Shown here: in pieces, positions 3,804 through 48,661 of the stretch
Layout of the letters: each line of letters begins with the position of its first letter
How positions within the stretch are numbered: the stretch's first letter is position 1
Source: an uncultured Verrucomicrobiae bacterium
Lineage (GTDB): Bacteria > Verrucomicrobiota > Verrucomicrobiia > Chthoniobacterales > JAFAMB01
DNA length: 64,000 bases
NCBI GenBank assembly: GCA_963813025.1
Contig: CAWEXO010000001.1
Location: 96,001-160,000 of the forward strand
Reading direction: 5' to 3'
Made by a program: the position numbers and the translations under genes
The notes under the pieces: generated by a model
Seen by the model: only the letters and a program-made list of their open reading frames with translations
Database searches by the model: none
Told to the model about the DNA's origin: nothing

Positions 3804-3967
3804 CACAGATTTCACAGATTTCACAGATTTCACAGATTTAGCCAACTCAGTCCAGGAGTCAGTGTCAGTGTCAATGCCAGTGTCAGTGCCAGTGCTAGTG
3901 CTAGTGCCAGTTGCCATAGGTCATTGGTTATCGCTCATCGGTAATCGGTCATCGGCCATCGGTCATT
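3804..3967. repeat. Composite simple tandem repeats: (CACAGATTT)x4, (GYCAGT)x9, then ATCGGTC-type heptamers
   Basis: Read directly: 3804-3839, 3858-3911 and about 3915-3967. Confidence 0.9.
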
Positions 3968-8637: not shown

Positions 8638-11108
8638 TGAACAATTTCACTCCACGTGCTCAACAGGTTTTGGCGCTTGCACGGAAGGAAGCGGATCGGT
8701 TTAACCACAACTATGTGGGCACCGAACACCTTTTACTCGGACTGATCAAACTCGGCCAGGGTGTCGCGGTAAACGTCCTGCAAAAAATGGGACTCGATCT
8801 GGAAACCGTCCGCATGGAGGTGGAGAAGAAGGTCGGCTCCCATCCCGAGACGAAAATGGTGGGCAACATCCCGTATACTCCCCGGGTCAAGAAAGTGCTC
8901 GCCCTCGCCGGCAAAGAAGCTAAAGCGCTCAACCATTCCTACGTCGGCACTGAACATATTTTATTAGGGTTGCTCCGTGAAGGTGAAGGAGTAGCCGCTC
9001 GAGTCCTCAAAAGTCTCGAGGTCGATATCGAAAGAACCCGCAACGAAATTTTAAAAGAATTGGACCCGAATTTTACACCGCCGGAAAGCGAGGCAGAGAG
9101 CCCGCAGGAAGGCAATAAAAAAGATGTTAAAACGCCCGCGTTGCGGGCGTTTGGTCGCGATTTGACTGAACTCGCGAAGAAAGGCGAGCTGGACCCGGTA
9201 ATCGGTCGCAAGAACGAGATCGAACGGGTAATTCAGATTCTTTGCCGGCGGACGAAAAATAACCCAGTGCTGCTCGGTGAAGCCGGTGTTGGCAAGACTG
9301 CCATTGTGGAAGGACTGGCTCAGGAAATCGGGGCCGGCAATGTTCCGGAATTGCTGCGTGACAAGCGGGTGATCACGCTGGACCTGGCCCTCATGGTTGC
9401 CGGAACGAAGTACCGCGGCCAGTTCGAAGAGCGAATCAAAGCGGTCATGGACGAAATCCGCCGCTCCAAAAATGTGGTGCTCTTCATTGACGAGCTTCAC
9501 ACGATTGTCGGTGCCGGTTCGGCGGAAGGCGCCATGGATGCCTCGAACATTATCAAACCGGCTCTGAGCCGGGGTGAACTGCAGTGCGTCGGGGCAACCA
9601 CGCTGAACGAGTATCGCAAATACATCGAGAAGGACGCCGCCTTGGAACGGCGATTCCAGACCGTGAAAGTCGAAGCTCCTACCGTTGAGGAGGCGATCCA
9701 GATCCTGCACGGACTACGACCGAAGTACGAGGCCCACCACAAGGCCAAACTTACGGATGAATCACTCGACGCGGCCGTCCGCCTCTCGGACCGATACCTT
9801 ACCGGCCGTTTTTTGCCGGACAAAGCAATCGACGTCATGGACGAAGCAGGTGCCCGCGCCCGCATCAATGCCATGACTCGTCCGCCAGATGTCAAAGAGA
9901 TCGAAAAGGAGATCGAAGTAATCCGGGCCGACAAGGAAGCTGCCATCAAAGCGCAGGATTTTGAAAAAGCGGCCGCGCTGCGGGATTCCGAAAAACAGGC
10001 GAAGGACAGGCTGGAACGGATCCTGGCCGAGTGGAGAGAAAGGCGGGAGGAGCACGAGGTTGTAGTCACGGCGGACGACATCATGCATATCGTCTCAAAG
10101 TGGACAGGTGTCCCTTTGAACCGTCTGGAAGAGCAGGAGACTCAGAAACTCCTGAAAATGGAAGACGAATTGCGGACGCGAGTCATCGGCCAGGACGAGG
10201 CGGTTATCGCGATCAGTAAAGCGCTCCGGCGTTCCCGGGCAGATTTGAAGGATCCGCGGCGGCCGATTGGTTCCTTCATTTTCCTGGGACCTACCGGCGT
10301 GGGCAAGACATTCCTCGCGCGGACTCTCGCGGAGTTTATGTTCGGCGACGCGGATGCCTTGATCCAGATCGACATGTCCGAATACATGGAAAAATTCACG
10401 GCTTCTCGATTGATCGGTTCGCCTCCCGGCTATGTGGGTTATGAGGAAGGCGGCCAATTATCCGAGGCGGTTCGCCGCCGGCCCTATTCGGTTGTTCTGT
10501 TTGACGAAGTCGAAAAGGCGCATCCCGACGTCATGCATCTGCTGCTGCAGATCCTGGAGGAAGGTAAGATAACTGACAGTCTCGGCCGCAAGATCGACTT
10601 CCGGAACACGATCATCATCATGACTTCGAATGTCGGGGCCGAATTCATCAAACGCCAAAACGCGATGGGTTTTGGCGCGGCGTCGGGCCACGAATCTTAC
10701 GAGGCGATGCGCGACAAGATCTTGGACGAAGCCAAACGCGGTTTCAAACCTGAGTTCCTGAACCGCTTGGACGATATGATCGTGTTTCACACGCTGTCCC
10801 GGCAGGATTTGGTGCAGATCGTCGATCTGGAGGTGGCCAAAGTAACCCAGCGGGTTCGTGCAAAAGACATTCACCTGCAGCTCGAGTCGAGCGCAGTCGA
10901 ATTTCTGATCGATAAGGGTTACGACCCGACCTACGGCGCGCGACCGATGCGGCGAGCGGTCGAACGGTACCTGGAAGACCCTCTTGCCGAGGAGCTTCTG
11001 CGAGCGCGCATCAAAGCCGGGGATACCGTTGAGGTTTACGCCGCGGGCGAGCAACTCGCTTTCCGTCCGGCCCACGCTGAGCAGCCGCAAACGGCGGAGG
11101 CCTCCTGA
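8634..11108 (+). CDS. clpC: ATP-dependent Clp protease ATPase ClpC
   Basis: Two Clp-N repeats, two AAA+ modules ([16 protein letters not shown]) and a UVR-type M domain. Confidence 0.95.
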
Positions 11109-11209
11109 GGGGCTTGTCAAAAAACTAAATCGCTTGGGAGTGGGCGCGACGTGGCACCCGGTCATGTGCCGGTAGGGCAGTATCTGAGCAGGTCTGGCAA
11201 GGGAAAAAG

Positions 11210-12484
11210 TTAAAGTTTTTCACCGATTGGTGAGTGGCGTTTTTTGAGGACTTGGAGGTAGCGCTCTTCGTCATAAGGGGTGGGGTCCTGCCAGAGCCGG
11301 AAGATGACGCGGATCCATTTAAAGGCCAAGGCGCGCACGGCAGTGTGGTGGGACTTACCGCGGGCCATTTGCTCTTGATAATAGAGCTTGGCCCATTGGG
11401 AATAAGGAATGGAATGAGCCGCGAATTCGTGGAAGCTCTGGCACAGGAATTTGGAGCGAAAGCGCCGCCGCTGGACGCTTTTGGTTTGGCCGCTGCGCAC
11501 TTGGACCGGAGCGATTCCGCTTTTTTTCTGTACCTCCAGGGCTTGGGCAAAAGCCTGCCGATTGGAGCCAAAAGCCACCAACAAGCGCGGGGCTAATTGC
11601 GGGCCGGCTCCGGGCAGACTTTCAAAAATGTGCCGATCGGGATGTTTGGCAAACAGAGTGTGGATGGCTTTGTCAAAAGCCTTGATGGAATCTCGCAGCG
11701 GCAACAATTGACTGACCAAACACTTGCAACTCAGCACGGAGGGCTCCAGCAGAGAACGATCCTCGGTGACGGTTTGGGCCCGAGCAATCTTTTCCAAGCG
11801 CTCCTCGATCAAGCTCTGGCTGCGGCTGTGGTGCTGATAAAAAAAAGAGCGCAGGGTCTGGGGCTTGGCTTTTTTTAAACTCTGCAGGGTCGGCCAGCGT
11901 TTCAAAAAATGCAGCGCCAGAGTGGTGCCCAAATCATCGAGGAGCTCGAGGGCCAGCGGATAGTAGACTTTGAGTAAGCTGGTGAGTTGGTTTTCGCACA
12001 CCACGGAGGCCTCGACGGCTTTGCGTCGGTGCTGACCGAGCAAATCCAGTTCCCGCACTACCGGCTCCGAGGGTTGATAAAGCCGGAGCCGATCCCGATG
12101 GTGATCAACGAGCTCTTCGATCAATTGGCTGTCGCGAGGGTCATCCTTGGCGCCACTAGTAAAGAAGACCTTGCGGTATTCGCTTAAACTCAAAGGATTG
12201 AGCGGATAGAGGTCGATCCAGTCTCCCTGGGTGCGGAGCATTTCAAAGAGTGCTCCCCGATTTTGTTCAAAACCAATGGCCACCCGCCCCTGCGGACCAG
12301 CCAAGCTTTTGAGCTCTTCGAGCCAGGTCCGAACCGAAACGGGATCGGCGCCCAGCTGGAATGTCCGGCATCCTCCCTCCGGACCAGAGCGTTGACAGAC
12401 AGCGTGTTCTTTATCAGCCCAATCGATTCCCACGCTGACCATATAATGGGGATCTGGGACCGGAAACGGATTTGATCGGTTCAT
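11210..12484 (-). CDS. IS110-family DEDD recombinase/transposase (424 aa, intact)
   Basis: GIDWA, GFEQ and AKDDPRDS (DEDD RuvC-like domain); SLPGAGPQLA and GIAPVQVRSG (Tnp domain with the Ser motif); AAGGAG SD. Confidence 0.95.
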   Translation of the reverse strand: MNRSNPFPVPDPHYMVSVGIDWADKEHAVCQRSGPEGGCRTFQLGADPVSVRTWLEELKSLAGPQGRVAIGFEQNRGALFEMLRTQGDWIDLYPLNPLSLSEYRKVFFTSGAKDDPRDSQLIEELVDHHRDRLRLYQPSEPVVRELDLLGQHRRKAVEASVVCENQLTSLLKVYYPLALELLDDLGTTLALHFLKRWPTLQSLKKAKPQTLRSFFYQHHSRSQSLIEERLEKIARAQTVTEDRSLLEPSVLSCKCLVSQLLPLRDSIKAFDKAIHTLFAKHPDRHIFESLPGAGPQLAPRLLVAFGSNRQAFAQALEVQKKSGIAPVQVRSGQTKSVQRRRFRSKFLCQSFHEFAAHSIPYSQWAKLYYQEQMARGKSHHTAVRALAFKWIRVIFRLWQDPTPYDEERYLQVLKKRHSPIGEKL

Positions 12485-12519
12485 GCTTGCTCCTTTTTTC
12501 TGGTTTTACCCAGCGCGAA

Positions 12520-12855
12520 AAAAGCCGCTTGGCTTTGGCCGTCCGAAATCCGTATAGTTAAGTCGTCGAAGTGTGAAGTGCTCGACCTCAACTAGAGTAT
12601 TCGTTGTGACGAATCAAAGCGCGACCGGCTGGCTCGAAACTCTGCCCTAAAGATCTCGCGGACCCGAAAATCCTATTCGTAGCCAGCCGGCGCGTCCTTC
12701 TTCGCGTGGGCAGCGCGGGATTTTGCCCGACTGCCCTTGGCAAAGAAAACCCTTTCTTTTTTCCAAAGCTTTCTTTTCTCCGGGCGGAGTTATTCACAAG
12801 CTGGAGCTCCGACCGGTAGGGCCTCCGACCACAGCTTGCTGAATAACTCCGGACT
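12520..12855 (-). ncRNA. Putative IS110 bridge RNA (target-binding and donor-binding loops, plus 5' hairpins)
   Basis: The stem 12625-12634/12681-12690 encloses guides ATTTTCG and TAGGGC that match the target. The stem 12534-12543/12608-12618 encloses ATACT and CTATAC that match the circle junction. RNA ends are inferred. Confidence 0.8.
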
Positions 12856-12863
12856 TGCTATAC

Positions 12864-12980
12864 GAAAATTCATTCGAGCGCCAGGCGAGAACTTGTTTGA
12901 GCCGGGCGTTGGATGTGGCAGCTCAAGCGTCCGGCTCGAACGAGTCTTCGCCGAAGGCTCAGATGAATTCTCGCTACCGA
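12864..12980 (+). repeat. Right part of the REPIN interrupted by IS110
   Basis: GGCGAGAACTTGTTTGAGCCGG...CCGGCTCGAACGAGTCTTCGCC...GAATTCTCGCTACCG, homologous to 43129-43235 and 48443-48568. Confidence 0.85.
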
Positions 12981-13074
12981 TTTTAGATTATTGCGGAGAC
13001 TGCCTCTTCCTCCGGCTTTCGTTGCTCCAGACCTTTTCCTTGCGCTCGGCCTGTTCGCGACGCGAGAATTTGCC

Positions 13075-13920
13075 ATGCTCTGGCAGGCACGCGGCCATCG
13101 TCTCGAATTGGGTCGGCAGGCCCAAATCATGGGTGTGCTGAATGTCACCCCGGATTCCTTCTCTGACGGTGGTCTTTACCTGGACCTCGACCGGGCTCTG
13201 ACCCACGCCCAAACGATGGCCGGCGCGGGGGCAGCCATTATCGACGTCGGAGGCGAATCCTCGCGTCCCGGCTCGGATCCGGTACCCCTCGAAGAGGAGG
13301 TTCGGCGAGTAGTCCCGGTGATTTCGGCCCTGCGGGAGCGATTGCCGGAAATCTTGATTTCTGTGGATACCTATAAGTCCGAGACCGCCCGTCAGGCGCT
13401 CGCGGCCGGAGCGGATATCGTGAATGACATTTCCGCCGCACGAGATCCAGAGATGCTCGCGGTCGTTCGGGAGTTCGGCGCCGGCATTATTCTGATGCAC
13501 ATGCAGGGAGTTCCGAAGACGATGCAGCTTTGTCCTGCTTACCGAAATGCGATCGACGAAGTCGTCGAATTCCTCGAGAGACGCCGAGATTCTCTGGTGG
13601 CGCAGGGCATCGCTCGAGAGCAGATTGGGCTTGACCCCGGATTTGGTTTCGGCAAACGGCTGCAGGACAATATTGTGCTGGCGGGTAACTTGAAGGAGTT
13701 GGCCAAGCTGGGTCAACCAGTCGTGGTTGGCCTTTCCAGAAAATCCAGCTTGGCCCAACTCCTCGGCGATCCGAAGTTGAACTACAGTGGACGGTTCTGG
13801 GCGACGATCGCTTTTACAAGCTACCTGCGCGAACAAGGCGCTCAGGTTGTGCGCGTGCATGATGTCCGGCCTAACGTAGAAGCAATTCGGATGACTGAGG
13901 CGATTCTGAACGATGAATGA
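13075..13920 (+). CDS. folP: Dihydropteroate synthase
   Basis: MGVLNVTPDSFSDGG, DVGGESSRPG, DPGFGFGK, SRKS, RVHDV; ATG chosen at 13075. Confidence 0.95.
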   Translation: MLWQARGHRLELGRQAQIMGVLNVTPDSFSDGGLYLDLDRALTHAQTMAGAGAAIIDVGGESSRPGSDPVPLEEEVRRVVPVISALRERLPEILISVDTYKSETARQALAAGADIVNDISAARDPEMLAVVREFGAGIILMHMQGVPKTMQLCPAYRNAIDEVVEFLERRRDSLVAQGIAREQIGLDPGFGFGKRLQDNIVLAGNLKELAKLGQPVVVGLSRKSSLAQLLGDPKLNYSGRFWATIAFTSYLREQGAQVVRVHDVRPNVEAIRMTEAILNDE

Positions 13921-14886: not shown

Positions 14887-14910
14887 CGAGGATCGATGAC
14901 CTGGCCGCGG

Positions 14911-15080
14911 CCGGCCATCGGCCATCAGTGTCAGTGTCAGTGCCAGTGCCAGTGCTAGTGCCAGTGCTAGTGCCAGTGCTAGTGCCAGTGCTAGTGTCAG
15001 TGCCAGTGCCAGTGTCAGTGCCAGTGCCAGCGCTGCCGGTTGTCATCGGTCATCGGCTATCGGCTATTGGTTATTAGCCA
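14911..15080. repeat. Hexamer tandem array (AGTGCC/AGTGCT/AGTGTC) flanked by ATCGGYY heptamers
   Basis: Read directly; about 17 hexamer units at 14926-15030. Confidence 0.9.
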
Positions 15081-43034: not shown

Positions 43035-43320
43035 TGTCGGACTTTGAGTTATCTGTGGCCCACGCGATTGAGCTATGGTTCGGAAGGGAGGTTAGAGACT
43101 TGTTCCAACGCATCTTTGATCCTGTGTCGGTAGGGCGAAAACTTGTTTGAGCCGCCTGGAGCGGGTGGCTCACCCCAGCGTCCGGCTCAAACAAGTTCTC
43201 GCTAATGCTCGAATAAATTTTTGCCCTACCGGCACAGGACAGTACGGCACTCTGAGACCATCTCTAACTTTCGCGCGGGCAATCCCTCGATGGCGTACCG
43301 CAGATTCCCAAAGTCCGACA
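43035..43320. mobile_element. Nested MITE/REPIN-like element, copy 1
   Basis: Outer TIR TGTCGGACTTTG/CAAAGTCCGACA with an inner GTAGGGC...GCCCTAC cassette; homologous to 48351-48661. Confidence 0.8.
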
Positions 43321-43482: not shown

Positions 43483-44249
43483 AATGATCGCTGTGCAAAA
43501 CTTTCAAGCTGCACTGGCAGTGCTCCTTTTCGGAATGGCCGCCCCTGTCATCGGTCAGCAACCAGTCGACAAAAGCGCGCCGAACGATCGTAACACGGAC
43601 TTGCAGTTCGACTTTTCAGTCACGAATACCGGGAAACGAGGGACTTATCGGATTATCCGGCTGGATACTGGCGAGACTTTGGCGACGGGATTAGTTGGGC
43701 GAGACGTTTCGCCACATACGACCTTGCTGAACGAATTTAAGGCTGCGGGTCTGCCTGCGCGTACACCTGTGATCATTCAGGTCCGAGGTGCCGACGGGTC
43801 ATGGTCGACCGTGGACAGTATCGAAGTCCATTATCCTCCGGAGCCGAGCGACTCCCAACGGTATCTCAGATGACGCCGGCTATCGTGGGAACTTTAAAGT
43901 GCCCGATCTTTCCACACCATCCCCTACGCCTGCCGCCAGTCCAAGTCCGAATCCTAGCGCTACTCCCAGTCCAAGTCCGAATCCTAGCGCTACTCCCAAT
44001 CCAAGTCCGAATCCTAGCGCTACTCCTGTTCCAAAGCGTACCAGTGCCGCCTCACAACCCCGTGAATCGGCGATCCGAGCACAAAACGGGACAAATGCGA
44101 ACGCCAATACAGGTTCACATTTGGGCCCAGGCCCTGTTCGCTACGGCTCAGATGAAGAGGTTGTCTCGCAACATGGCCTCGACCCTGCTCCGGTAGGCGA
44201 AAATTTATCCGACGTGTTCGCCGAAGCTTTAGCGGAAGAGAAGCCTTAG
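43483..44249 (+). CDS. Secreted protein with a Pro/Ser/Thr-rich linker, apparently frameshifted near 43850-43870
   Basis: Signal peptide MIAVQNFQAALAVLLFGMAAPVIG; the second frame carries PSPSPNPSAT repeats. Confidence 0.5.
43936..44026 (+). repeat. 30-bp coding tandem repeat x3
   Basis: CCAGTCCAAGTCCGAATCCTAGCGCTACTC x3. Confidence 0.9.
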
Positions 44250-48350: not shown

Positions 48351-48661
48351 CTGTCGGACTTTGGAAATCTGTAAGTACGCCATTCAAGCGATTGGTCGCG
48401 CGAGGTTCTAGAGATCGTCCCAGAATGCCCCCTGTCCTGCGTCGGTAGGGCGAAAAATTATTCGAGCCCCAGGCGAGAACTTGTTTGAGCATCTGGAGCG
48501 GGTGGCTCACCCAAGCGTCCGGCTCAAACAAGTTCTCGCTAAGGCTCGAATAAATTTTCGCCCTACCGCCACAGGACCAAAGACGCCTTGGGACATCCCT
48601 CGAACCTCTCTTCCGAACCATAGCTCGATGGCGCGTGCTACAGATTTCCAAAGTCCGACAG
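48351..48661. mobile_element. Nested MITE/REPIN-like element, copy 2
   Basis: Perfect 23-bp TIR CTGTCGGACTTTGGAAATCTGTA; inner GTAG cassette at 48443-48568. Confidence 0.85.

What the first reader, a model, noticed from the sequence alone, without database searches (positions are those of the whole stretch)
12531..12695. Bridge-RNA-like bispecific guide in the IS110 non-coding end: loops match both the target and the element's own junction
Seen, reading the minus strand. The reconstructed target is GAATTTTC-G-CCCTACC and the circle junction (donor) is CAGATACT-G-TATAGC. Loop 1 is closed by the perfect stem CCGGCTGGCT/AGCCAGCCGG (12625-12634/12681-12690). It holds ATTTTCG (12665-12671, identical to the left target) and TAGGGC (12644-12649, reverse complement of the right target), on either side of a small inner hairpin. 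Loop 2 is closed by TTTG..CGTC/GACG..CAAA. It holds ATACT (12596-12600, identical to the left donor) and CTATAC (12552-12557, reverse complement of the right donor). Established: this four-guide layout is that of IS110 bridge RNAs such as IS621. Inference: this is an intact RNA-programmable recombinase. Its geometry appears to differ from IS621, with a single shared core base, about 6-nt right guides, a 424-aa protein and a 378-bp left end, so it may be an uncharacterised subtype.
Basis: partly seen in the sequence, partly recalled or inferred. Interest (0 to 1): 0.95.

Follow-up and report, generated by a model that had tools for sequence, protein, structure and literature searches.

The report
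IS110 bridge RNA, one shared base
The flagged stretch encodes the two-loop guide ("bridge") RNA of an intact, multi-copy IS110-type jumping gene, a known kind of RNA-guided recombinase, here in a branch whose insertion site and own ends share one base instead of two.

Summary
In detail: all six strings sit at the stated coordinates.

**What it is.** The region is the left end of a 1,685-bp IS110-family element (window 11178-12862, minus strand). The genome holds 10 full copies, all inserted at AATTTTCG|CCCTACC inside an abundant host repeat.

**Is it a bridge RNA?** This reading is strongly supported.
- A covariance model built from this RNA finds the same two-loop structure upstream of the recombinase gene in 28 distant loci.
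- 43 of 55 base pairs show compensatory changes.
- The variable loop segments track each element's own flanks. No permutation reached the observed match, 0 of 10,000, for either the left or the right target guide.

- The "ATACT" left donor guide is probably a conserved scaffold motif (CGAAUAC). By homology the guide is the adjacent CUCUAGUUGAGG, which pairs only imperfectly in this copy.
- The bases just 3' of both right guides match the recombined junctions, like the handshake guides of IS621.

**What differs.** Distant relatives have a CT core like IS621. This clade shares only G (target CG, donor TG).

**Verdict.** It is a known kind with a modest variation. The scan had already noted another copy in this genome (e1-7688197). 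No RNA data were available.

The parts
11178..12862 (-). Whole IS110-family element (1,685 bp, counting the shared G at 11178 with the right end)
   Evidence: 10 full copies at 98.3-100% identity plus one left-end fragment in the genome. Boundaries come from 10 junction pairs and from uninterrupted target sites.
11210..12484 (-). Recombinase gene, 424 aa
   Evidence: Pfam PF01548 (2.3e-20) and PF02371 (1.1e-08). NCBIfam NF033542 'IS110 family RNA-guided transposase', 144.1 bits against a cut-off of 140. D21, E73, D115 and D118 are invariant and S331 nearly invariant in 12 homologs. The ORF is 424 aa in 10 of 10 copies.
11178..11209 (-). Right end (32 nt). It holds a -35-like TTGCCA (11200-11195) and the left donor CTCAGATACTG (11188-11178).
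   Evidence: Read from the sequence. TTGCCA lies 17 nt from the first left-end base, so a circle junction would read TTGCCA-N17-TATAGC. A TTGnnn hexamer 16-18 nt from the left-end start was found in 16 of 18 family members examined.
12857..12862 (-). TATAGC: first bases of the left end. TATAG is the right donor, and the hexamer is the -10-like half of the split promoter.
   Evidence: TATAG (TACAG in L029) starts the left end in all family members with a readable junction.
12786..12853 (-). Long 5' stem-loop of the left-end RNA. Its loop holds GCCCTACCGG (12822-12813).
   Evidence: Fold. The stem sequence is conserved in close relatives and, by eye, in the L073 group. The loop decamer is in all 10 copies but not in relatives.
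12510..12707 (-). Bridge RNA body: an outer stem (12706-12697 with 12523-12514) enclosing the target-binding and donor-binding loops
   Evidence: Consensus fold. Covariance model R1 hits 28 distant loci at E 2e-13 to 9e-5. 43 of 55 pairs have changes on both sides and 94.2% of cells are paired, against 73% in shuffles. The stretch is identical in all 10 copies.
12665..12674 (-). Left target guide AGGAUUUUCG. The last 7 nt equal the left target plus the shared G.
   Evidence: The segment varies between relatives in step with their left flanks.
12652..12664 (-). Small inner hairpin of the target loop (GGUC-CGCGA-GAUC)
   Evidence: All 4 pairs show changes on both sides across the family (helix 3).
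12642..12649 (-). Right target guide with handshake-like extension: UAGGGCAG, the reverse complement of CTGCCCTA at the right junction
   Evidence: 8-nt match to the right junction. The homologous segments of relatives match their own right junctions.
12586..12597 (-). Left donor guide by homology: CUCUAGUUGAGG. It would pair with the bottom strand of CTC-AGATACTG with one bulged U.
   Evidence: The homologous segment matches the right-end terminus over 8-10 nt in the 15 distant rows of the table (for example CUCAGGUG/CTCAGGTG in L024, CUCAGGGC/CTCAGGGC in L028, CUCAGAUC/CTCAGATC in L068). In this copy only CUC[U]AG is an exact run.
12596..12600 (-).
   Evidence: ACGAAU(A/G/C)CUC is kept in family members whose donor end is CTCAGATGTCT and has no ATACT. 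Close relatives have TTACT or CTACT in the DNA but unchanged AAUACU in the RNA. A 5-mer of this kind is reached by 1,449 of 2,000 shuffles.
12549..12557 (-). Right donor guide with extension: CUAUACGGA. It is complementary to TTCGTATAG at the left junction, with one G-T wobble.
   Evidence: The reverse complement of this strand matches the left junction, including 2-5 flank letters, in 23 of 23 family members listed.
12863..12870 (-). Left target AATTTTCG (host repeat)
   Evidence: Identical in 10 of 10 insertions.
11171..11177 (-). Right target CCCTACC (host repeat)
   Evidence: Identical in 10 of 10 insertions.
48553..48567 (+). An unoccupied copy of the 15-nt target AATTTTCGCCCTACC in the same window
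   Evidence: repeat family D4.

Best explanation
Window 12510-12707 (minus strand) encodes the body of a bridge RNA of an active IS110-group insertion sequence.

Steps read from sequence:
1. The element sits in a host repeat at AATTTTCG|CCCTACC.
2. Its right end carries TTGCCA and its left end starts with TATAGC. A circular copy would therefore join them into a sigma-70-like promoter with a 17-nt spacer, reading into the left end.
3. The RNA would fold into a 5' stem-loop, two short hairpins, and an outer stem that encloses two pseudo-symmetric internal loops. Each loop is closed by CGAAU...UUUCG.

Steps inferred by analogy with IS621:
1. [quoted passage not shown] 2. In the donor loop, CUCUAGUUGAGG pairs imperfectly with the left donor CTCAGATACTG, and CUAUAC pairs with GTATAG.
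3. The DEDD/Ser recombinase cuts the top strands next to the shared G, exchanges them and resolves the junction.
4. The bases 3' of each right guide (AG in the target loop, GG in the donor loop) pair with the incoming strand.

The difference in this clade. The position that is C of the CT core in distant relatives differs between target (C) and donor (T). The left target guide matches its resident DNA, as does the left donor guide of most clade members (U-G; this copy has G-G). The right guides match the strand that arrives after exchange.
For: - Protein. IS110 domains; NF033542 above its cut-off; DEDD and Ser conserved; weak sequence matches to the solved ISCro4 and IS621 recombinases (E 1.9e-6 and 7.4e-6).
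- Activity. 10 copies at 98.3-100% identity with intact ORFs, all at the same 15-nt site. 127 empty sites remain.
- Structure. z = -5.3. R1 finds the RNA on the same strand, upstream of the ORF, in 28 distant loci. 43 of 55 pairs have compensatory change. 94.2% of cells are paired, against at most 46% when partners are slid.
- Target guides. LTG against its own left flank gives a mean longest match of 6.75 nt, against 3.25 for other loci (24 LTGs, 552 cross pairs). The 3' strand of the target loop against its own right junction gives 7.0 against 3.86 (19 strands, 342 cross pairs). Both give 0 of 10,000 permutations. Within the close clade alone the LTG changes from AUUUUCG to AGGUUUUCG to GGAGCCUC together with the flank.
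- Donor guides. RDG CUGUA goes with TACAG in L029. Core and handshake letters track the flank: GGCT in L070, CCAA in L028, AACCT in L077. The LDG tracks right-end variants in L024, L028 and L068.
- Conservation. A variant contig differs at 27 listed places in 732 nt of ORF, at 2 in the 378-nt left end, and at none in 12510-12707.
- Architecture of IS621, taken from passages of PMC11208160 and PMC11208158.
Against: - No RNA evidence: no RNA run was listed, and only contigs of DNA runs could be laid.
- No circle junction in the assembly.
- No Rfam family matches.
- The consensus scan finds no minus-strand promoter in the linear copy. The junction -10 (TATAGC) lacks the usual final T.
- The left donor guide pairs poorly in this very copy. 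The exact run is CUC[U]AG. By my hand count, allowing wobble, 8 of 11 positions pair here and 10 of 11 in most clade members.
- L028 fits neither target guide (3 and 3 nt).
- 54 of the 86 sources searched with R1 gave no hit at all, and 2 more gave only a marginal hit on the expected strand (L069, L035; E about 0.2). These are mostly relatives at 39% identity or less, so nothing is shown for them.
- A2 was fitted to the model, which inflates the pair counts.
- Junctions of single-copy metagenome loci were set by the TATAG and CTCAG landmarks, not by empty sites.
Confidence: 0.9

Rival explanations
1. One reading: ATACT (12596-12600) is the left donor guide of this clade. The guide would have moved 5' onto the scaffold after the donor end changed from ...GATGTCT to ...(A/T)TACTG.
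For: A five-base exact match next to the core in this copy. TACT is present in the DNA of all clade members with a readable right end. The homology-based guide has 3 mismatches here (hand count).
Against: AAUAC is conserved where the DNA has no such sequence. The DNA varies (A, T or C before TACT) with no change in the RNA. The match is at chance level (1,449 of 2,000). It would disrupt the CGAA/UUCG closing helix, in which 2 of 4 pairs never vary and 97.8% of cells are paired (helix 6).
Confidence: 0.12
2. The structured left end is only a 5' leader that controls recombinase expression (promoter, translation or stability). The similarity of its loops to the flanks is incidental.
For: Before 2024 the non-coding ends of IS110 elements were thought to regulate expression (background in PMC11208160). 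Single matches in this copy are not significant. There are no RNA or binding data here.
Against: The loop segments change with the flanks across families while the stems are kept by compensatory changes. The sense/antisense layout of the four segments is that of IS621.
Confidence: 0.03
3. The two-base core is intact and the 'one shared base' is a boundary misreading.
For: Distant relatives have CT at both junctions. An earlier scan note on another genome (e1-7943343) reports such a misreading.
Against: Empty site TTTTCGCCCTA, left junction TTTTCGTATAG and right junction ATACTGCCCTA allow only G to be shared, wherever the boundary is drawn. This holds in 10 of 10 copies for the left junction and 9 of 10 for the right, the other being ACTA. 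All clade relatives with a readable junction agree: 16 left and 13 right.
Confidence: 0.03

Closest known systems
IS621 of Escherichia coli and its bridge RNA (IS110 group; Durrant et al. 2024, PMC11208160; Hiraizumi et al. 2024, PMC11208158; PDB 8wt6)
   Same: - A DEDD plus Ser recombinase.
- The guide RNA is encoded in the long left end.
- Two internal loops. In each, the 5' strand has the sense of the left half-site and the 3' strand is the reverse complement of the right half-site.
- The bases beyond each right guide match the other DNA, like handshake guides.
- A promoter split across the junction of right and left ends.
- Insertion into a host repeat without duplication.
   Different: - The protein is very distant: phmmer E 7.4e-6, Tnp domain only, and 424 aa against a 328-residue solved chain.
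- The left end is 378 nt against a 177-nt bridge RNA. It has extra 5' hairpins and an outer stem enclosing both loops.
- The right target guide covers 6 nt, against the 4-base RTG of IS621.
- Target and donor share G only (CG against TG), against CT in both.
- The left donor guide pairs with a bulge and mismatches.
- I did not align the two RNAs, because no IS621 DNA was fetched.
ISCro4 bridge recombinase (PDB 9t56)
   Same: It is the best solved-structure match by sequence (E 1.9e-6, query residues 227-412). The serine motif aligns (RSG here, ESG there).
   Different: Only the C-terminal domain aligns. The name and role are taken from the PDB title and from the listing of the IS622/ISCro4 preprint, which I did not read.
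CT-core relatives of this same family (L072, L073, L077, L102 and others; 30-45% protein identity; metagenome and MAG contigs)
   Same: The same RNA scaffold (CGAAU...UUUCG in both loops, CUAUA right donor guide), TATAG as left-end start, CTCAG in the right end, and the split promoter.
   Different: - They end in ...CT at both junctions and carry AG as core guide in both 3' strands.
- This clade has CG/TG in the DNA, with CA and CG in the RNA.
- The 3' strand of the target loop is one base longer here, 13 against mostly 12 nt.
IS1111-group elements and their seekRNA / right-end bridge RNA
   Same: The same recombinase family and the same two-specificity logic (section 12 passages of PMC11208160).
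   Different: There the RNA lies in a long right end. Here the right end is 32 nt and the RNA lies in the left end.

Membership tests
IS110 family, IS110 group (bridge recombinase elements) | Recombinase with an N-terminal DEDD RuvC-like domain and a C-terminal Tnp domain with a catalytic serine | tested here: met
   PF01548 and PF02371. NF033542 at 144.1 bits against a cut-off of 140. D21, E73, D115 and D118 invariant, S331 at least 90% conserved in 12 homologs.
IS110 family, IS110 group (bridge recombinase elements) | Long left end, short right end; no terminal inverted repeats; site-specific insertion, often in host repeats | tested here: met
   Left end 378 nt, right end 32 nt. 10 of 10 copies sit at AATTTTCG|CCCTACC in a repeat with 127 empty copies.
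IS110 family, IS110 group (bridge recombinase elements) | Sigma-70-like promoter reconstituted across the junction of right and left ends | tested here: inconclusive
   TTGCCA-N17-TATAGC would form. A TTGnnn hexamer 16-18 nt from the left-end start was found in 16 of 18 relatives. This is a consensus match only, and the -10 lacks the final T. No circle and no transcript were seen.
Bridge RNA (IS621 type) | Non-coding RNA with two internal loops flanked by conserved stems | tested here: met
   (43 of 55 pairs with compensatory change).
Bridge RNA (IS621 type) | Target loop: 5' strand has the sense of left target plus core; 3' strand is the reverse complement of core plus right target; both covary with the insertion site | tested here: met
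   Here the matches are 7 nt and 6 nt (8 nt with the extension). Covariation gives 0 of 10,000 permutations for both.
Bridge RNA (IS621 type) | Donor loop: 5' strand matches the left donor; 3' strand is the reverse complement of core plus right donor | tested here: inconclusive
The right donor guide is met: CUAUAC against GTATAG, 23 of 23 relatives, and L029 compensatory. The left donor guide is met in distant relatives (8-10 nt). In this copy it is only an imperfect match with a bulge.
Bridge RNA (IS621 type) | Handshake guides: bases next to each right guide pair with the other DNA after top-strand exchange | tested here: met
   By sequence only. UAGGGC-AG matches CT-GCCCTA at the right junction. 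CUAUAC-GGA matches TTC-GTATAG at the left junction with one G-T. In relatives these letters follow the target flank. The concept is taken from PMC11208158 and PMC13626964 (passages).
Bridge RNA (IS621 type) | A core dinucleotide identical in target and donor and paired by all four guides | tested here: not met
   Only G is shared: target CG, donor TG. The feature is met, as CT, in most distant relatives of the same family; L024 and L028 end in TT and AA.
Bridge RNA (IS621 type) | The RNA is made, binds the recombinase and directs recombination | not testable with these tools
   No RNA holder was listed.
Rfam families | A match to a curated covariance model | tested here: not met
   Nothing relevant at E up to 10 in 10500-13500.

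The most novel reading that the evidence does not exclude
In this clade the first core position would have become a third handshake position.
- The target has C and the donor has T.
- The left target guide, and the left donor guide of most clade members, match their resident DNA.
- Both right guides match the incoming strand: CA pairs with the donor's TG, and CG pairs with the target's CG.

Pairing would therefore increase on top-strand exchange, biasing the reaction toward insertion, with a single shared base. That would be a natural version of the 'post-exchange' guide design that was engineered for IS621.

In addition, this genome's copies carry a 10-nt copy of the right target (GCCCUACCGG) in the loop of the 5' stem-loop. 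It could pair with the right target guide of the same RNA and act as a built-in mask.
Probability: 0.25. Interest if true: 0.55.

Novelty: new variant of a known kind. Interest (0 to 1): 0.38.

Why it matters
Bridge recombinases are being developed as programmable tools for inserting, excising and inverting DNA. This family offers three things.
- A distant recombinase (about 424 aa) with a readable guide code.
- Dozens of natural guide/target pairs.
- A natural case in which target and donor need share only one base, while the neighbouring position is read differently by left and right guides.

If that holds at the bench, it loosens the core constraint on programmable sites. It would also give a natural example of how guide design sets the direction of recombination.

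For genome annotation the result is ordinary: an active IS110 element sitting in a host repeat.

Tried and rejected
- Rfam scan of 10500-13500 at E up to 10: only chance-level hits.
- RNA evidence: no RNA holder was listed.
- Laying contigs of two runs showed no joints. Loose ends at 12863 read as uninterrupted repeat copies, which the genome has in 127 places, so they say nothing about excision.
- Circle junction in the assembly: none with up to 2 mismatches.
- Promoter scan of the linear element: no minus-strand site.
- Pair counts on the close-relative alignment A1: the stems are almost invariant and only 1 pair changes on both sides, so this is uninformative. The wider alignment A2 was needed.
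- RNAalifold paired the left target guide with the inner hairpin region. I replaced this with a 4-bp hairpin, which later showed 4 of 4 compensatory pairs.
- Placing the core by position relative to the closing helix gave conflicting registers. The L024 group is shifted by 3 nt and L077 by 1 nt. I therefore make no claim about exact cleavage positions.
- L028 fits neither target guide.
- Rows left out:
  - L057 (chimeric left end) and L076 (nested copy) were excluded from the left-guide test.
  - L027, L061, L080 and L085 have no left flank.
  - The left boundary of L066 was set by hand, because a later TATAG lies inside its left end.
- Earlier-findings look-up by place: nothing.
- I did not fetch IS621 DNA, so the two RNAs were not aligned to each other.

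Full report
**1. Observation**

The flagged 165 nt lie inside the 378-nt left end of an element spanning window 11178-12862. The only long ORF on that strand (11210-12484, 424 aa) carries the two IS110 domains, PF01548 and PF02371. It passes NCBI's model NF033542, "IS110 family RNA-guided transposase", at 144.1 bits against a cut-off of 140. In an alignment of 12 homologs D21, E73, D115 and D118 are invariant and S331 is nearly so. These correspond to the DEDD tetrad and the catalytic serine described for IS621. The nearest solved structures by sequence are the ISCro4 and IS621 recombinases. The matches are weak and limited to the C-terminal domain (E 1.9e-6 and 7.4e-6).

**2. The element is multi-copy and site-specific**

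- The window's genome holds 10 full copies at 98.3-100% identity and one 213-bp left-end fragment.
- All 10 ORFs are 424 aa.
- All 10 copies have AATTTTCG to the left and CCCTACC to the right.
- The uninterrupted 15-mer AATTTTCGCCCTACC occurs 127 times in the genome. Another 100 sites differ from it by one mismatch.
- This 15-mer is the most conserved part of a roughly 60-nt host repeat. One empty copy lies in the window at 48553-48567.
- Comparing the empty site with the two junctions shows that only one base, G, is common to target and element ends.

**3. Chance**

Within this one sequence the matches are individually weak (000 dinucleotide shuffles of the left end).

| Match | Shuffles doing as well |
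|---|---|
| 7-mer to the left target | 341 of 2,000 |
| 5-mer to the left donor | 1,449 of 2,000 |
| 8-mer to the reverse complement of the right junction | 43 of 2,000 |
| 7-mer to the reverse complement of the left junction | 75 of 2,000 |
| All four together | 0 of 2,000 |

The case therefore rests on relatives.

**4. Relatives**

A scan of genome contigs gave 25 loci. The best, at 69% protein identity, lie in MAGs labelled Verrucomicrobiota and Acidiferrales. A scan of metagenome contigs gave 104 relatives, of which 80 were kept. The left end aligns by BLAST to 20 of these 105 loci.

In that close clade (62-72% protein identity) the stems are almost invariant, while the 10 nt after CGAAU in the first loop change together with the left flank:

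| Loci | RNA segment | Left flank |
|---|---|---|
| this element | AUUUUCG | AATTTTCG |
| L059 | CAGGUUUUCG | CAGGTTTTCG |
| L051 and others | UAGGUUUUCG | GAGGTTTTCG |
| L056 | GGAGCCUC | GGAGCCTCG |
| L054, L055 | same type | one mismatch each |

**5. The wider family**

I built a covariance model (R1) from 13 distinct clade sequences with a curated structure.

- Over 86 further sources it found the RNA on the ORF strand, upstream of the ORF, in 28 distant loci at 30-45% protein identity (E 2.2e-13 to 8.9e-5). It also found two truncated close copies.
- The other 56 sources, mostly at 39% identity or less, gave nothing at that level. Two of them (L069, L035) had only a marginal hit on the expected strand (E about 0.2). 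I draw no conclusion about any of these.
- On the resulting alignment (A2, 35 distinct rows) 43 of 55 pairs show changes on both sides. 94.2% of cells are paired, against 73.0% in shuffles (0 of 500) and at most 45.6% when partners are slid. The alignment was fitted to the model, which favours the structure. The slid controls share that bias.

The scaffold common to all is as follows.
- First loop: stem, (C/G)UACGAAU, about 10 variable nt, a 4-bp hairpin, variable nt, AGAnnUUCG, stem.
- Second loop: stem, ACGAAU(A/G/C)CUC..., a hairpin, CUAUA(A/C)GGnnUUCG, stem.

**6. Guide-DNA covariation**

Junctions were located by the left-end start (TATAG or TACAG) and by CTCAG in the right end.

Rows left out:
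- L027, L061, L080 and L085 lack a left flank.
- L057 (chimeric) and L076 (nested) were excluded.
- The L066 boundary was set by hand.

Results:

| Test | n distinct | Own DNA, mean longest match | Other loci | Permutations reaching the observed sum |
|---|---|---|---|---|
| Left target guide against the last 12 nt of the left flank | 24 | 6.75 nt | 3.25 nt (552 pairs) | 0 of 10,000 |
| Reverse complement of the 3' strand of the first loop against the right junction | 19 | 7.0 nt | 3.86 nt (342 pairs) | not run on this measure |
| The same with the conserved last 5 nt trimmed | 19 | 4.53 nt | 3.01 nt | 0 of 10,000 |

Poor fits are L028 (3 and 3 nt), and L025, L047 and L085 (4-5 nt).

For the second loop:
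- The reverse complement of the 3' strand matches the left junction in 23 of 23 listed loci, including 2-5 letters of host flank. These letters differ between families: AACCT in L077, GGCT in L070, GCT in L102 and L068, CCAA in L028, TTT in L024.
- L029 has TACAG in the DNA and CUGUA in the RNA, a change on both sides.
- The 5' strand matches the right-end terminus over 8-10 nt in the 15 distant rows of the table, and it follows right-end variants: L024 CUCAGGUG/CTCAGGTG, L028 CUCAGGGC/CTCAGGGC, L068 CUCAGAUC/CTCAGATC.

This is the layout described for IS621. The left guides pair with the bottom strand, the right guides pair with the top strand, and handshake bases sit beyond the right guides. 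The sources are passages of PMC11208160, PMC11208158 and PMC13626964.

**7.

(a) The left donor guide.
- ATACT (12600-12596) overlaps CGAAUAC. That motif is conserved in family members whose donor end is CTCAGATGTCT.
- In the close clade the DNA reads TTACT or CTACT while the RNA stays AAUACU.
- The homologous guide is CUCUAGUUGAGG (12597-12586).
- The following are my hand counts, not a tool output. With one bulged U and allowing G-T wobble, it pairs at 10 of 11 positions in most clade members and at 8 of 11 in this copy. The donor end of this copy carries A where its relatives have T.

(b) The extensions of the right guides. The two bases after each right guide were not named in this finding. 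UAGGGC-AG is the reverse complement of CT-GCCCTA at the right junction. CUAUAC-GGA pairs with TTC-GTATAG at the left junction with one G-T. That is, they pair with the products of strand exchange.

**8. The core**

Most distant relatives end in CT at both junctions, as IS621 does. Both of their 3' strands carry AG there.

In this clade the left flank ends in CG (16 of 16 relatives with a readable flank, and 10 of 10 own copies). The right end ends in TG (13 of 13 relatives and 9 of 10 own copies; the C4 copy has TA).

The RNA reads:
- CG in the left target guide.
- UG in the left donor guide of most clade members (GG in this copy).
- CA after the right target guide.
- CG after the right donor guide.

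So at the first core position the left target guide fits its resident DNA, as does the left donor guide in most clade members. The right guides fit the incoming strand. The donor-loop G can also wobble with the resident T. I prefer cleavage 3' of the shared G. That keeps TATAG as right donor and as the -10 box, and it agrees with the position of the core in most left target guides. Sequence alone cannot decide between cutting before or after G.

The methods of PMC13626964 (passage) state that IS621 products are expected to carry mismatches in the two bases 3' of the core after bottom-strand exchange. If that also holds here, a difference at core position 8 need not create a heteroduplex there. 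That would fit the uniform junctions. This step is inference.

**9. Expression**

A circle would join TTGCCA (11200-11195) to TATAGC (12862-12857) with a 17-nt spacer. A TTGnnn hexamer 16-18 nt from the left-end start was found in 16 of 18 family members tabulated. By eye, L073 also has TTGACG at 17 nt. The linear copy has no consensus promoter on this strand. No RNA run was available, and the assembly holds no circle junction.

A variant of the element in one DNA run differs at 27 listed positions in 732 nt of ORF, at 2 in the 378-nt left end, and at none in 12510-12707. The left ends of the 10 genomic copies differ at 3 positions, none of them in the RNA body.

**10. Comparison and novelty**

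This works like IS621 and belongs to the IS110 group.

It differs as follows:
- A very distant protein.
- A longer left end, with a long 5' stem-loop, two small hairpins and an outer stem around both loops.
- A 6-nt right target guide.
- A single shared base.

Longer right target guides are reported in orthologues, and non-CT cores were engineered in IS621 (passages). My two literature searches listed no paper whose title or abstract start describes a natural element with non-identical core positions. I read only passages of four papers, and their supplements were not opened. Those supplements may list such cases.

Another note (e1-7943343, another genome) warned of a one-base misreading.

**Verdict.** This is a real and well-supported bridge RNA: a known kind with a modest variation. 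Interest 0.38.

Noticed in passing
G000 C13:92671, C11:77963 and the fragment at C1:207984 (loci L004, L010, L011); compare locus L066: Three of the 11 left-end copies start with a 13-bp tandem duplication of the first left-end bases (TATAGCAAGTCCG twice). The distant relative L066 has a similar 12-bp duplication at its left-end start. The recurrence suggests that the recombination mechanism produces it, for example a secondary insertion at a weak site followed by collapse of the tandem copies. This was not tested.
   Followed up: partly
G000 C4:2774-4458 (L006): One copy has ACTA instead of ACTG at its right junction, while its left junction keeps TTTTCG. This is either a point mutation or an insertion into a repeat variant with A at the shared position. 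Variants such as TATTTTCACCCTACC do exist in the genome.
   Followed up: no
window 12813-12822 (minus strand): The loop of the 5' stem-loop reads GCCCTACCGG. That equals the shared G plus the first 9 nt of the right target, and it is complementary to the right target guide UAGGGC of the same RNA. It is present in all 10 copies and absent from relatives. Its function is unknown.
   Followed up: partly
L076:1-1200: One element copy is inserted exactly after the DNA that encodes the left target guide of another, truncated copy (GACGAATTGGCAACCCT|TATAGG). This is an insertion at a site matching only the left half. It resembles the 'half-match' events reported for IS621 (bioRxiv 10.64898/2026.08.31.748434, passages).
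   Followed up: no
L057: A chimeric copy. The flank and the first ~10 nt of the left end look like the L054/55/56 subgroup, while the rest is identical to L047. The ORF match stops at residue 332 and the downstream DNA is unrelated.
   Followed up: no
window 43156-43240 and 48493-48577, and genome-wide: A host repeat family with a conserved core of about 60 nt (CCGGCTCAAACAAGTTCTCGC...GCTCGAATAAATTTTCGCCCTACCGG). 127 exact copies of the 15-nt target and 46 copies of a TTCTCG variant exist. None of the 10 insertions uses the variant.
   Followed up: partly
G000 C16:83668-85352 (L007): This copy lacks one A in the left donor (CTCGATACTG), which would shift or weaken pairing with the donor guide.
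   Followed up: no
window 3835-3923, 14901-15049, 43923-44034: Arrays of 6-nt and 12-nt period repeats (CCAGTG/TCAGTG type, and a 30-nt unit) turned up in the repeat scan. They are unrelated to the element.
   Followed up: no
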